Positions 56,689 to 57,549 of a stretch of 64,000 nucleotides of DNA are shown here, in pieces. The DNA is from a virus, in the IMG/VR virus record IMGVR_UViG_3300023180_000001; one strand, given 5' to 3'. Each line of letters starts with the position of its first letter. Within the stretch, counting starts at the first letter, position 1. The notes under the pieces are model-generated. The model was not told the DNA's origin and did not search any database. It was given only the letters and a program-made list of their open reading frames with translations. Position numbers and translations under genes: made by a program.

Positions 56689-56813
56689 AGATTACTTTAA
56701 GATTGAAGTGCTACCGTTACACCATCAGGGACGTATCCCTGAGCCGGACTCGAACCGACACCTTTTGTTTCACAAGACAAGTATAATCAAATATTTGTTG
56801 CTGTAAGTAATCT
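56689..56813 (-). ncRNA. module U6: circularly permuted tRNA-like core
   Basis: The closing helix is AGAUUAC/GUAAUCU. The core runs T arm GUCGG-UUCGAGU-CCGGC, then acceptor hairpin UCAGGGA-UACG-UCCCUGA, then D arm GUGU-AACGGUA-GCAC. Confidence 0.7.
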
Positions 56814-56825
56814 TTAACTTGTTTC

Positions 56826-56956
56826 AGGTTCCTGTTGTTTGCGTCTGCTGCTCTACCAACTGAGCTACCTCCCGTCAACGTATTATGGTCGAGAGGGCTG
56901 GACTCGAACCAGCGACCCACAGTATCCATTAGCGTTATTGTTGCTGCAAGGAACCT
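56826..56956 (-). ncRNA. module U5: circularly permuted tRNA-like core with internal ACCA
   Basis: The closing helix is AGGUUCC/GGAACCU. The core runs GCUGG-UUCGAGU-CCAGC, CCUCUCG-ACCA, an 11-nt linker, CGGGAGG-UA, the D arm GCUC-AGUUGGUA-GAGC, then GCAG pairing back to CUGU. Confidence 0.7.
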
Positions 56957-56974
56957 TTAATTCTAAATTGTGTC

Positions 56975-57072
56975 AGAGTGTCTTAATGTGCGCGGGAATC
57001 GAACCCGCTCCAGTCGATTAATAGTCGATTGCTCTACCAGTGAGCTAGCGTATAGTTTGCTGTACACACTCT
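56975..57072 (-). ncRNA. module U4: tRNA-like core in canonical order with a degenerate acceptor
   Basis: The closing helix is AGAGUGU/ACACUCU. Inside are the D arm GCUC-ACUGGUA-GAGC, an anticodon-like arm AUCGA-CUAUUAA-UCGAC, and the T arm GCGGG-UUCGAUU-CCCGC. Confidence 0.65.
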
Positions 57073-57088
57073 TTAAGTTTTTATCTAG

Positions 57089-57115
57089 TTTACACCCTCT
57101 TATGGAAGATGTAAA
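57089..57115 (-). ncRNA. spacer hairpin S1
   Basis: An 11-bp stem (UUUACAUCUUC-CAUAA-GAGGGUGUAAA, two G.U pairs) has the same flanks as S2 but a different stem sequence. Confidence 0.55.
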
Positions 57116-57127
57116 GTGGATAATGTC

Positions 57128-57216
57128 AGGCTAATTTGTTTGCACCATTGCAATCTCCTAATTGGCAGGAAATAAAGGAATCGAACCTCTAAAATTATGT
57201 TTGCTGTAGTTAGCCT
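57128..57216 (-). ncRNA. module U3: permuted T-arm / acceptor / D-hairpin core
   Basis: The closing helix is AGGCUAA/UUAGCCU. The core runs AGAGG-UUCGAUU-CCUUU, AUUUCCU-GCCAAUU-AGGAGAU, then UUGCA-AUGG-UGCAA. Confidence 0.65.
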
Positions 57217-57228
57217 TTAAATTGTATC

Positions 57229-57353
57229 AGGTTCATATTACTATGTGGCAGGTGTCCTCCCATTAGACTATCTCCGAACATCCGAACGGAGAGCCGGGAT
57301 CGAACCGACACAACCTGCTTTGGCTTAAGTAATAGGTCTGCTGTAATGAACCT
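57229..57353 (-). ncRNA. module U2: circularly permuted tRNA-like core
   Basis: The closing helix is AGGUUCA/UGAACCU and a second helix is UAUUACU/AGUAAUA. The core runs GCAGG..GUCGG-UUCGAUC-CCGGC, UCUCCG-(10 nt)-CGGAGA, then GUCU-AAUGGGA-GGAC, A, CCUGC. Confidence 0.7.
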
Positions 57354-57375
57354 TTAAATCTCTATCTTGGTGCCC

Positions 57376-57403
57376 ATTATACACACTTTGATGTAAAAGT
57401 CAA
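57376..57403 (-). promoter_or_regulatory. sigma70-type promoter inside the module array (TTGACT-16-TATAAT)
   Basis: Minus strand reads gcTTGACTtttacatcaaagtgtgTATAATggg. It is near-identical to the plus-strand promoter at 9750-9777. Confidence 0.65.
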
Positions 57404-57423
57404 GCACTTTTTAAATTATTTTC

Positions 57424-57549
57424 AGTATGCACATATCCGTCCTGACGTTCTACCATTAAACTACCTCCCCATAATGGTTATGGTGGGGCGGGAAGGACTC
57501 GAACCTCCACTATCAGGTTTAACTTAGGAAGTGTTGCTGTAGGCACACT
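57424..57549 (-). ncRNA. module U1: circularly permuted tRNA-like core with internal ACCA
   Basis: The closing helix is AGUGUGC/GCAUACU (one G.U pair). The core runs CCUGA-UAGU-GGAGG-UUCGAGU-CCUUC, CCGCCCC-ACCA, a 10-nt linker, GGGGAGG-UA, then GUUU-AAUGGUA-GAAC, G, UCAGG. Confidence 0.7.

What the first reader, a model, noticed from the sequence alone, without database searches (positions are those of the whole stretch)
56689..57549. Circularly permuted tRNA-like cores (T arm, acceptor 3' strand, linker, acceptor 5' strand, D arm), three of them retaining an internal NCCA
In U1, U2, U3, U5 and U6 the order of elements is anticodon-stem 3' strand, variable loop, canonical T arm (UUCGAGU/UUCGAUC/UUCGAUU loops), acceptor 3' strand, short linker, acceptor 5' strand, D arm (loops containing GG), then anticodon-stem 5' strand.

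The acceptor halves pair across the linker:
- U1: CCGCCCC / GGGGAGG (6 of 7)
- U2: UCUCCG / CGGAGA
- U3: AUUUCCU / AGGAGAU
- U5: CCUCUCG / CGGGAGG
- U6: UCAGGGA / UCCCUGA (7 of 7)

The anticodon-stem halves pair back as well: U1 CCUGA/UCAGG, U2 GCAGG/CCUGC, U5 CUGU/GCAG. U1, U5 and U3 keep A-CCA or G-CCA right after the acceptor 3' strand. This suggests origin from tandem tRNA duplications.

A closed acceptor end with an opened anticodon end running into a terminal helix is the topology described for the tRNA-like domain of bacterial Y RNAs (YrlA). It is also the gene topology of the permuted tRNAs known from some algae and archaea. I do not know of either being described as an array in a phage tRNA cluster.
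Basis: partly seen in the sequence, partly recalled or inferred. Interest (0 to 1): 0.88.

Follow-up and report, generated by a model that had tools for sequence, protein, structure and literature searches.

The report
Phage Y-RNA array with tRNA-mimic cores
The "permuted tRNAs" are real: they sit inside eight tandem small-RNA units just upstream of a phage gene for a Ro60-like RNA-binding protein, so they are best read as phage Y RNAs of the YrlA (tRNA-mimic) type, a known kind of RNA seen here in an undescribed variant.

Summary
On the minus strand, five units (U1, U2, U3, U5, U6) have the order T arm, acceptor 3' strand, linker, acceptor 5' strand, D arm. The acceptor halves pair across the linker in 6/7, 6/6, 7/7, 7/7 and 7/7 positions. 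U1, U3 and U5 keep an internal NCCA.

They are not permuted tRNA genes, split tRNAs or intron-containing tRNAs. Each core lies inside a larger unit. That unit has a 7-8 bp basal helix, different in every unit, followed by a conserved UACAGCAA. There are eight such units (56488-57549).

The array ends about 70 nt upstream of a DUF2828/DUF7788 gene (54955-56421, minus strand). The best structural matches of that gene's predicted fold are phage, bacterial and human Ro60.

The same helix-plus-ACAGCAA module flanks this gene family on the gene strand in 70 of 89 other phage loci, including Listeria phage P100, Felix O1-like, Aeromonas and Mycobacterium phages. It shows strong compensatory covariation.

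Rfam's YrlA model matches only the tRNA-like part and scores below threshold. The canonical CGAA Ro-binding motif is absent.

Verdict: a new variant of the known Ro60/Y-RNA system. Binding to the protein, RNase P nicking and the function are inferred, not shown.

The parts
57424..57549 (-). Unit U1. Basal helix AGUGUGC/GCAUACU, then CUACAGCAA. Permuted tRNA-like core at 57441-57517 with a 6/7 acceptor and internal A-CCA (57484-57481).
   Evidence: Rfam YrlA 21.1 bits
57376..57403 (-). Sigma-70-type promoter (TTGACT, 16 nt spacer, TATAAT) between U1 and U2.
   Evidence: 11 of 12 consensus positions
57229..57353 (-). Unit U2. Basal helix AGGUUCAU/AUGAACCU, then UACAGCAG. Permuted tRNA-like core at 57248-57318 with acceptor UCUCCG/CGGAGA.
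57128..57216 (-). Unit U3. Basal helix AGGCUAA/UUAGCCU, then CUACAGCAA. Permuted core at 57141-57194 with a 7/7 acceptor, internal G-CCA and a short D arm.
   Evidence: found by the independent model R2 at 31.5 bits
57089..57115 (-). Extra hairpin in the trailer of U3 (CAUUAUCCAC, hairpin, CUAGAUAA). A second copy follows U6.
56975..57072 (-). Unit U4. Basal helix AGAGUGU/ACACUCU, then GUACAGCAA. The core is a tRNA-like domain in normal order (D arm, anticodon arm with AUU, T arm) at 56984-57054. Its acceptor strands do not pair. This is the Yrn1-like topology.
   Evidence: (Rfam tRNA 47.5 bits, acceptor flagged as not paired); R2 26.9 bits
56826..56956 (-). Unit U5. Basal helix AGGUUCCU/AGGAACCU, then UGCAGCAA. 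Permuted core at 56845-56922 with a 7/7 acceptor and internal A-CCA. Its D and T arms match the YrlA consensus.
   Evidence: (YrlA 40.1 bits, E 1.5e-6); compensatory changes in L001
56689..56813 (-). Unit U6. Basal helix AGAUUACU/AGUAAUCU, then UACAGCAA. Permuted core at 56708-56763 with a 7/7 acceptor closed by UACG. A similar unit occurs in the Felix O1-like phage UAB_Phi87.
   Evidence: R2 20.1 bits
56651..56676 (-). Extra hairpin in the trailer of U6, a copy of the one after U3.
56572..56635 (-). Unit U7. Basal helix AGGGCAA/UUGCCCU, then CUACAGCAA. Short core with no tRNA-like features (YrlB-like).
   Evidence: the best R2 hit in the whole window, 37.4 bits
56488..56553 (-). Unit U8. Basal helix UGAGCAA/UUGCUCA, then CUACAGCAA. 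Short core.
   Evidence: R2 30.4 bits
56452..56480 (-). Sigma-70-type promoter (TTGACA, 17 nt spacer, TATTAT) in front of the protein gene.
54955..56421 (-). Gene for a 488-aa Ro60-like protein: a helical-repeat domain followed by a vWA domain with an intact MIDAS motif. Pfam DUF2828 plus DUF7788; PHROG 850 'RNA-binding protein'.
57560..57644 (-). Long-arm tRNA-Ser(GCU)-like gene ending in CCA immediately upstream of U1. ARAGORN did not call it.
   Evidence: tRNA-Sec model 44 bits, below threshold; the gene at the same position in L001 is called tRNA-Ser(gct)

Best explanation
The region is a tandem array of eight phage-encoded Y-RNA-like small RNAs. They are transcribed on the minus strand from strong sigma-70-type promoters, together with neighbouring tRNAs.

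Each unit folds into a 7-8 bp basal helix formed by its own 5' and 3' ends. A conserved single-stranded UACAGCAA follows the 5' strand, and a G follows the 3' strand. I infer that this basal module is the handle bound by the Ro60-like protein encoded directly downstream.

The variable core carried on the handle is the effector part:
- In U1, U2, U3, U5 and U6 it is a YrlA-type tRNA mimic: T arm, acceptor stem closed by a linker, D arm, with the anticodon end open towards the handle.
- In U4 it is a tRNA-like domain in normal order, as in Yrn1.
- In U7 and U8 it is a short hairpin, as in YrlB.

Inferred by analogy with M. smegmatis YrlA: U1, U3 and U5 have 7-bp acceptor stems and an encoded NCCA. 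They are probably cut by host RNase P at the 5' side of the acceptor 5' strand and trimmed to CCA. That would give two-piece, CCA-ended tRNA mimics still held together by three helices.

Inferred by analogy with bacterial and Thermus-phage Ro60 complexes: the tRNA-like domains recruit host tRNA-binding or RNA-decay factors such as PNPase to the phage Ro-like protein. This would serve RNA quality control, tRNA protection or repair, or counter-defence during infection.

Shown here: the anatomy, the covariation, the Ro60-like fold, and the genomic association. Not shown: expression, processing, binding and function.
For: Anatomy:
- All 8 units have a basal helix of different sequence next to the conserved motif. 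MFE folds recover it in 8 of 8 units.

Independent recognition:
- Model R2 was built only from units of other phages. Its top three hits in the whole 64-kb window, both strands, are U7, U3 and U8 (37.4, 31.5 and 30.4 bits).
- With filters off it also finds U4 (26.9 bits) and U6 (20.1 bits).

Covariation:
- Basal helix: 99.6% paired in 81 distinct sequences. Six of 7 pairs show changes on both sides. Compensatory cells number 198 against 57 in shuffles. Slid controls are 27-51% paired.
- Closed acceptor stem: 97% paired, with 5 of 5 modelled pairs compensatory.
- Orthologous units in L001 carry compensatory changes. U5 goes from CCUCUCG/CGGGAGG to CCCCUUG/CAAGGGG. U3 goes from AUUUCCU/AGGAGAU to AUUUCCA/UGGAGAU. 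NCCA is kept in both while the linkers diverge.

Partner protein:
- The AlphaFold model (pLDDT 77.8) has as its top three full-length Foldseek hits Thermus phage Ro60 9KOP (E 9e-8), D. radiodurans Rsr 2NVO (3e-7) and human Ro60 9NEN (7e-5).
- The MIDAS residues are invariant in the family alignment.

Association with the gene family:
- 133 modules on the gene strand against 5 on the opposite strand. 70 of 89 loci have at least one.
- 91 of 91 R2 hits and 26 of 26 in an independent set of 30 loci lie on the gene strand.
- Examples: P100 has 3 units, Aeromonas phage 4_4572 has 7, Mycobacterium phage Jobypre has 3, the middle one YrlA-like.

Precedents:
- YrlA next to Ro60 in 254 bacteria and 22 phages, and RNase P cleavage plus CCA addition on M. 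smegmatis YrlA, which has a 7-bp acceptor (PMC4201824).
- Phage Ro60 binds two upstream Y-like RNAs and host PNPase (PMC12135203).
- RNA repair ligase genes lie near the gene in P100 (RtcB) and Aeromonas phage 4_4572 (Rnl2).
Against: - Rfam YrlA scores (40.1 and 21.1 bits) are below the gathering score of 69. They cover only model positions 23-89, the tRNA-like part.
- The canonical GNCGAA/CGAA Ro-binding motif is absent from the whole array.
- The protein matches Pfam DUF2828/DUF7788, not TROVE. A sequence profile hits TROVE structures only weakly, at E 0.028.
- Fold stability is not distinguishable from shuffles (z from -0.2 to -1.8). The MFE folds of U1 and U5 do not give the cloverleaf-like core.
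- R2 does not score U1, U2 or U5 significantly, probably because their cores are long.
- The CM alignments used for pair counts are fitted to the models. E-values come from a shortened calibration.
- Only about a fifth of related loci have tRNA-like cores, so the tRNA mimic is not essential to the family.
- There is no expression, processing or binding evidence.
Confidence: 0.75

Rival explanations
1. The units are genuine circularly permuted tRNA genes. Each transcript would be circularised or ligated at the anticodon end and opened at the acceptor end to give a working tRNA, as in Cyanidioschyzon merolae.
For: The order of elements, the pairing of the acceptor halves, and the encoded NCCA in three units fit this gene topology. 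Some related phages encode RNA ligases near the partner gene.
Against: - There is no anticodon loop. The anticodon-stem halves continue through 10-17-nt spacers into a 7-8 bp helix and the conserved UACAGCAA.
- No bulge-helix-bulge junction is present.
- U3 and U6 lack an anticodon stem altogether.
- U2 and U6 lack NCCA.
- In other phages the acceptor is closed by tight UUCG or GUAA loops, which cannot give tRNA ends.
- No RNA ligase was found among the window ORFs that were scanned.
Confidence: 0.03
2. The cores are decaying remnants of tandem tRNA genes, or junctions between them (T arm of one gene, D arm of the next), with no function of their own.
For: - Real tandem-tRNA junctions also score with a permuted-core model, for example window 53084-53168 at 33 bits. 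Chen et al. warn about this artefact.
- The acceptor strands of U1, U2, U3 and U5 resemble each other, which suggests duplication.
Against: - Acceptor halves pair in 6-7 of 7 positions, against 1-4 of 7 at real junctions.
- Compensatory changes occur within units between two phages and across 17 cores.
- Every core is framed by a covarying basal helix and a conserved motif.
- Similar cores recur next to the same gene family in distant phages.
Confidence: 0.05
3. The repeated module is a processing or punctuation signal for the polycistronic tRNA and early transcript, for example an RNase E, RNase III or RNase P entry site. The tRNA-like cores would be processing handles, independent of the neighbouring protein.
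For: - The units are separated by conserved A/U-rich single-stranded stretches (GAUACAAUUUAAAG).
- They lie within a tRNA region driven by strong promoters.
- In the Felix O1-like phage the units are scattered among tRNA genes.
Against: - The module tracks the DUF2828 gene across phages of Firmicutes, Actinobacteria and Proteobacteria. It is often present as arrays in that gene's 5' UTR, with or without nearby tRNAs.
- The last unit often abuts the gene's ribosome-binding site. That fits protein binding better than general processing.
Confidence: 0.1
4. The array is the RNA antitoxin of a type III toxin-antitoxin-like pair: a tandem RNA repeat upstream of a protein gene, processed by and inhibiting that protein.
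For: The layout is a tandem RNA-repeat array directly upstream of one protein gene on the same strand.
Against: - The protein has a Ro60 fold with a vWA domain, not an endoribonuclease fold.
- The repeats are not near-identical. They are diversified, with covarying helices and different cores.
- A promoter separates the array from the gene.
Confidence: 0.02

Closest known systems
YrlA Y RNAs of bacteria and phages (Rfam RF02553; Chen et al. 2014, PMC4201824), especially M. smegmatis YrlA
   Same: - A tRNA-like domain in permuted order (T arm, closed acceptor-like stem, D arm), opened at the anticodon end into a stem formed by the RNA's two ends.
- Encoded on the same strand next to a Ro60-type gene, together with shorter partner RNAs (YrlB-like).
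- M. smegmatis YrlA has a 7-bp acceptor, is cut by RNase P and carries CCA. This matches the anatomy of U1, U3 and U5.
   Different: - Scores fall below the Rfam threshold.
- The basal stem lacks GNCGAA/CGAA and instead has an unpaired UACAGCAA after a short helix.
- The partner protein is DUF2828-type, not Pfam TROVE.
- There are eight units rather than one to a few.
- NCCA is fully encoded in three units.
Thermus phage phiLo Ro60 with Yrl1 and Yrl2 (PMC12135203; PDB 9KOP, 9L5Y)
   Same: - A phage-encoded Ro60-fold protein with Y-like RNAs encoded just upstream.
- 9KOP is the best structural match of the window's protein.
- It provides a functional model: the RNP binds host PNPase.
   Different: - phiLo has two RNAs with CGAA motifs. 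The paper text searched reports hairpins with that motif and no tRNA-like domain.
- Sequence identity to the window's protein is about 16% in the structural alignment.
D. radiodurans Yrn1/Yrn2 cluster upstream of rsr (PMC4201824)
   Same: - Several Y RNAs upstream of the Ro gene, made as a polycistronic precursor with a tRNA.
- Yrn1 has T and D features in normal order with an anticodon-like arm, as in U4.
   Different: - Different binding motif.
- A bacterial chromosome, not a phage.
- Fewer units.
Circularly permuted tRNA genes (Cyanidioschyzon merolae, Thermofilum; from my own knowledge)
   Same: The gene order is 3' half, linker, 5' half, with the acceptor ends adjacent.
   Different: Those genes carry a complete anticodon loop and a bulge-helix-bulge junction, and they mature into working tRNAs through a circular intermediate. 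None of these features is present here.

Membership tests
YrlA / bacterial Y RNA (Rfam RF02553) | tRNA-like domain: T arm, closed acceptor-like stem, D arm in that order | tested here: met
   Sequence; pairing counts; partial YrlA hits; covariation of the closed acceptor.
YrlA / bacterial Y RNA (Rfam RF02553) | Score at or above the Rfam gathering threshold (69 bits) over the whole model | tested here: not met
   40.1 bits (model positions 23-89 of 114) and 21.1 bits. Nothing at the gathering threshold.
YrlA / bacterial Y RNA (Rfam RF02553) | GNCGAA(N0-1)G or CGAA motif near the 5' end, the presumed Ro60 contact | tested here: not met
   No CGAA anywhere in 56480-57560 on the minus strand. UACAGCAA occupies the equivalent place.
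YrlA / bacterial Y RNA (Rfam RF02553) | Stem formed by pairing the RNA's 5' and 3' ends | tested here: met
   A 7-8 bp helix in 8 of 8 units. 99.6% paired with compensatory changes across 81 distinct sequences.
YrlA / bacterial Y RNA (Rfam RF02553) | Encoded within 4 kb of a Ro60 ortholog, on the same strand | tested here: met
   The array ends 67 nt upstream of the start codon of 54955-56421 (minus strand). That protein's model matches Ro60 structures best.
YrlA / bacterial Y RNA (Rfam RF02553) | Bound by Ro60 in vivo; carries pseudouridine 55 and dihydrouridine | not testable with these tools
   Needs immunoprecipitation and modification mapping.
Ro60 / TROVE proteins (the partner gene) | Helical-repeat ring plus C-terminal vWA domain with MIDAS | tested here: met
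   AlphaFold model with pLDDT 77.8. Full-length Foldseek hits 9KOP, 2NVO and 9NEN at probability 1.00. D281, S283, S285, T353 and D385 are invariant.
Ro60 / TROVE proteins (the partner gene) | Match to the Pfam TROVE sequence family | tested here: not met
   Only DUF2828 and DUF7788 are reported. A profile against PDB sequences hits TROVE chains at E 0.028.
Circularly permuted tRNA genes | 3' half upstream of 5' half, with the acceptor halves complementary | tested here: met
Circularly permuted tRNA genes | The termini rebuild a complete anticodon stem-loop through a bulge-helix-bulge junction | tested here: not met
   The termini form a plain 7-8 bp helix with long asymmetric spacers. No anticodon loop is present. 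U3 and U6 have no anticodon stem.
   Pairing from one unit to the next is 4, 5, 3 and 1 of 6, against 5-6 of 6 within a unit. In L001 the units sit in a different order, yet the compensatory changes are within units.
Permuted (two-piece) tmRNA | Match to the tmRNA_permuted or tmRNA models, with a tag reading frame | tested here: not met
   19.9 and 15.9 bits against a threshold of 47. ARAGORN reports no tmRNA.
Type III toxin-antitoxin RNA array | Near-identical short direct repeats upstream of an endoribonuclease toxin | tested here: not met
   The units differ in sequence and length, from 64 to 131 nt. The protein has a Ro60 fold.

The most novel reading that the evidence does not exclude
The helix-plus-ACAGCAA module may be an undescribed and very widespread family of phage Y RNAs. 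It would serve as a modular handle for a phage-specific Ro60 paralog.

In this phage the handle displays a panel of tRNA mimics. Three of them (U1, U3, U5) would be nicked by RNase P into CCA-ended two-piece molecules. These could act as decoys or sponges for host tRNA-targeting defence enzymes, or could recruit host tRNA and RNA-decay factors. In the extreme case they could be aminoacylated: U5 carries G3:U70 and A73, the alanine identity set.
Probability: 0.15. Interest if true: 0.8.

Novelty: new variant of a known kind. Interest (0 to 1): 0.55.

Why it matters
Ro60/Y-RNA particles are known from animals, bacteria and a few phages. Their RNA partners have been found mostly through the CGAA motif and the YrlA model.

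This locus points to a second, phage-borne branch:
- The protein family is large: about 8000 or more clusters in the protein database, at least 582 stretches in IMG/VR, and 711 cultured phage records. These include Felix O1-like phages, Listeria P100, and Staphylococcus, Campylobacter and cluster-L mycobacteriophages.
- It is annotated only as DUF2828, "RNA-binding" or "vWFA".
- Its partner RNAs share a different handle (short helix plus ACAGCAA) that Rfam 15 does not contain.

If that holds, the function of a common phage gene becomes directly testable in model phages. The tRNA-rich regions of many phages would then contain unannotated Y RNAs, some of them tRNA mimics with RNase P sites and CCA ends.

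For the finding as written, the gain is smaller. It is a clear, unusually rich example of YrlA-type tRNA mimicry, not a new class of permuted tRNA.

Tried and rejected
- k-mer enrichment upstream of the gene in 76 loci showed only A/T-rich words.
- A first loose motif-plus-helix scanner had a high background, about 20 hits per strand in 64 kb. It was tightened by requiring the trailing G or GA.
- MFE stability against shuffles is not significant for any unit, so the argument rests on covariation and models.
- A sequence search of the protein against PDB found nothing. Only the fold comparison showed Ro60.
- NCBIfam has no model for the protein. The literature search for DUF2828 found nothing relevant.
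- Supplementary tables of Chen et al. 2014 and the 2020 Annual Review are not held. I therefore could not check which 22 phages were listed.
- The nucleotide search of the array against cultured phages found only tRNA-like fragments.
- The apparent module at 59137-59040 is a consensus promoter, not a unit.
- A permuted-core model also hits ordinary tandem-tRNA junctions. Scores alone cannot be used without checking acceptor pairing and the basal helix.
- The readings as permuted tRNA, intron-containing tRNA, tmRNA and type III antitoxin were considered and rejected (see the membership tests).
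Full report
**Setting**

The window is part of a phage genome. It carries a T4-type large terminase (48671-50188), a primase-helicase and a family A DNA polymerase interrupted by a group I intron. It also has a cluster of about 20 tRNA genes on the minus strand at 51021-54492.

No close relative exists among cultured phages at the DNA level. The terminase is 58% identical to those of Salmonella and Cronobacter myoviruses. One IMG/VR contig, L001, is a close relative: the protein discussed below is 95% identical.

Everything in the finding is on the minus strand.

**Observation**

- T stems pair 5/5 in all five units.
- Acceptor halves pair across the linker in 6/7, 6/6, 7/7, 7/7 and 7/7 positions.
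- Anticodon-stem halves pair in U1, U2 and U5.
- U1 and U5 have A-CCA after the acceptor 3' strand. U3 has G-CCA.

As a control I used the 19 junctions between consecutive real tRNA genes of this window. There the same comparison gives 1-4 pairs of 7. Among 380 non-self combinations none reaches 7.

Rfam's YrlA model aligns to U5 (40.1 bits, E 1.5e-6) and U1 (21.1 bits). It does so only over its tRNA-like part and below the gathering score.

**The larger unit**

Each core is embedded in a repeated frame. A conserved UACAGCAA (once UGCAGCAA, once UACAGCAG) occurs eight times between 56539 and 57541.

- The 7-8 nt just before each copy are complementary to a stretch 41-107 nt downstream.
- This helix has a different sequence in every unit.
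- Seven of the eight helices start with A-G and end with C-U; U8 starts with U-G and ends with C-A.
- Each is followed by GA.

So there are eight units, U1 to U8, spanning 56488-57549. MFE folding recovers the basal helix in all eight. It recovers the T arm, closed acceptor and D arm cleanly in U2, U3 and U6.

- U4 carries a tRNA-like domain in normal order. ARAGORN calls it tRNA-Asn(AUU) and Rfam tRNA gives 47.5 bits. Its acceptor strands do not pair, and the basal helix takes their place.
- U7 and U8 have short cores with no tRNA features.

Consensus sigma-70-type promoters on the minus strand lie upstream of the region, between U1 and U2, and between U8 and the next gene. No terminator-like site lies inside the array.

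**The neighbouring gene**

About 70 nt downstream of U8, on the same strand, is a 488-aa ORF (54955-56421).

- It matches Pfam DUF2828 and DUF7788 and PHROG 850 "RNA-binding protein".
- Sequence searches of the PDB find nothing convincing.
- An AlphaFold model built from 30 homologs (pLDDT 77.8) has three full-length top hits in the PDB: Thermus phage Ro60 9KOP (E 9e-8), D. radiodurans Rsr 2NVO (3e-7) and human Ro60 9NEN (7e-5). All other hits are vWA domains only.
- The MIDAS residues of the vWA domain are invariant in the family.

The protein is therefore a divergent Ro60 paralog.

The family is large and almost entirely phage-borne:
- At least 7997 clusters in the protein database.
- At least 582 stretches in IMG/VR.
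- 711 cultured phage records, including Felix O1-like phages, Listeria P100, and Staphylococcus, Campylobacter, Aeromonas and Vibrio phages. They also include cluster-L-sized mycobacteriophages, where it is annotated "Ro-like RNA binding protein".
- Only 30 loci in one genome per species of 185,579 species, mostly MAG contigs.

**Association of the RNA module with the gene family**

In 89 non-redundant loci a simple scanner was used. It required C[AC]GCA[AG] preceded by a 7-bp arm whose complement, followed by G, lies downstream.

- It finds 133 modules on the gene strand outside the gene and 5 on the opposite strand.
- 70 loci have at least one.
- Anchors on the gene strand have a helix of 7 bp or more in 34.5% of cases. 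The figure is 8.5% after shuffling and 10.4% on the opposite strand.

Examples:
- Listeria P100 has three tandem units between a promoter and the gene.
- Aeromonas phage 4_4572 has seven.
- Mycobacterium phage Jobypre has three just downstream of the gene. The middle one is a YrlA-like tRNA mimic: Rfam YrlA 39.3 bits over the full model, my core model 68.6 bits, and it was not a seed.
- The Felix O1-like phage UAB_Phi87 has four units among its tRNA genes. One has a permuted core resembling U6.

A covariance model of the basal module (R2) was built only from other phages' units.

- It picks U7, U3 and U8 as its three best hits in the whole window. With filters off it adds U4 and U6. U1, U2 and U5, with the longest cores, are not scored significantly.
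- Across all loci, 91 of 91 hits at E ≤ 1e-3 lie on the gene strand.
- In an independent set, 26 of 26 do.
- In the resulting alignment the helix is 99.6% paired in 81 distinct sequences. Six of 7 pairs show changes on both sides, and one G-C pair is invariant. Slid controls give 27-51% paired.

The alignment is fitted to the model, which favours pairing. The slide controls and the strand asymmetry do not depend on that.

**Support for the tRNA-like cores**

A second model (R1) was built from 15 cores, including the window's. After realignment the closed acceptor helix is 97% paired, with all five modelled pairs compensatory. The T and D stems also covary. The anticodon-like helix is weaker, at 73% paired. 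One of the 17 aligned matches (L071 981-1060) is probably a tandem-tRNA junction.

Between the window and L001:
- The acceptor of U5 changes at three pairs with pairing kept.
- The acceptor of U3 changes U-A to A-U.
- The linkers differ in sequence and length, yet ACCA and GCCA are kept.

This argues that the internal NCCA is under selection.

R1 also hits ordinary tandem-tRNA junctions, for example window 53084-53168. This is the artefact Chen et al. warned about. Membership therefore rests on acceptor pairing and the basal helix, not on score.

tRNA-like cores occur in roughly a fifth of related loci. With six tRNA-like units, this window is unusually rich.

**Interpretation**

The anatomy is that of Y RNAs: a stem formed by the two ends, a conserved 5'-side element, a variable effector module, and a Ro60-type gene next door.

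- The five permuted cores have the YrlA topology.
- U4 has the Yrn1 topology.
- U7 and U8 resemble the short partner RNAs called YrlB (PMC4201824).

Chen et al. showed that M. smegmatis YrlA is cut by RNase P in vitro. In vivo it is found as two halves, and the 5' half ends in CCA. It is the only one of the three Y RNAs they tested with a 7-bp acceptor. U1, U3 and U5 have this anatomy with NCCA fully encoded. The same processing is the most likely fate, but it is inferred.

For function, the closest experimental model is Thermus phage phiLo. Its Ro60 binds two upstream Y-like RNAs and, with them, host PNPase (PMC12135203). RNA ligase genes near the partner gene in P100 (RtcB) and Aeromonas phage 4_4572 (Rnl2) point the same way, to RNA repair or turnover. 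None of this is shown for the present phage.

**Differences from the known family**

- The canonical CGAA/GNCGAA motif is absent from the whole array.
- The conserved element is an apparently unpaired UACAGCAA placed after a short helix, not inside it.
- Rfam 15 has no family that matches the module.
- The protein is not recognised as TROVE by Pfam.
- The literature searches found no description of RNAs associated with DUF2828 proteins. The library is incomplete, however, and I could not see the phage list of Chen et al..

**Verdict**

- The YrlA reading is right. The permuted-tRNA-gene reading is wrong as a mechanism.
- The novelty is moderate. This is a new variant of a known system.

Noticed in passing
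window 56975-57072 (-): U4 is a tRNA-like domain in normal order (anticodon AUU). Its acceptor strands do not pair, and it is framed by the same basal helix and motif as the permuted units. ARAGORN and Rfam call it a tRNA, but it is more likely a Yrn1-type Y RNA than a decoding tRNA.
   Followed up: partly
window 57089-57127 and 56651-56688 (-): The trailers of U3 and U6 carry a repeated insertion, CAUUAUCCAC plus a 26-27-nt hairpin plus CUAGAUAA. It is also present once in L001 (about 3733-3780). Its role is unknown.
   Followed up: no
window 57560-57644 (-): A long-arm tRNA-Ser(GCU)-like gene ending in CCA lies directly before U1. ARAGORN misses it and it scores only on the tRNA-Sec model (44 bits). 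The gene at the same position in L001 is called tRNA-Ser. Rfam also reports a tRNA at 53731-53801 that ARAGORN does not.
   Followed up: partly
window 9223-9477 (+): A group I intron (Rfam 94.4 bits) lies at the end of the family A DNA polymerase ORF (6944-9310).
   Followed up: no
window 56452-59137 (-): Five near-consensus sigma-70-type promoters (11-12 of 12 positions) lie within 2.7 kb, all pointing towards the array, the Ro-like gene and the tRNA cluster.
   Followed up: no
window 56850-56896 (-): The acceptor of U5 has G3:U70 with discriminator A73, the identity set of alanyl-tRNA synthetase. The pair is A3:U70 in L001, so this may be a coincidence.
   Followed up: partly
L054 1954-1992, L043 1952-1990, L055 1953-1990, L004 about 3950-3990, L093 3941-3996: In many relatives the last module sits in the 5' UTR, with its 3' helix strand directly followed by the ribosome-binding site (…CU-GAAAGGAG…AUG). 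This suggests that the protein autoregulates its own translation. In the window a promoter separates U8 from the gene.
   Followed up: no
L002 about 2840-3090: One module (AGAGUGG … CCACUCU, variant motif AUACUGCAAG) carries a core of about 220 nt with several GAAA tetraloops. No Rfam family matches it.
   Followed up: partly
L092 (Listeria phage P100) 2468-3019, 3662-3926, 6780-8063: A ROOL-like RNA (86 bits, below the threshold of 99) lies about 650 nt upstream of the three modules and the Ro-like gene. An RtcB 'tRNA splicing ligase' gene lies about 1.3 kb downstream of that gene.
   Followed up: no
L089 (Felix O1-like phage UAB_Phi87) 4719-5516: Four unannotated modules (AGACCNN … NNGGUCU-GG with U(U/A)CAGCAA) lie between annotated tRNA genes of a well-studied phage group. 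Some overlap small 'hypothetical protein' ORFs on the other strand.
   Followed up: partly
window 54505-54888 (-) and 57888-58251 (-): An HNH endonuclease gene lies between the Ro-like gene and the tRNA cluster. Broken HNH-like ORF fragments lie upstream of the array.
   Followed up: no
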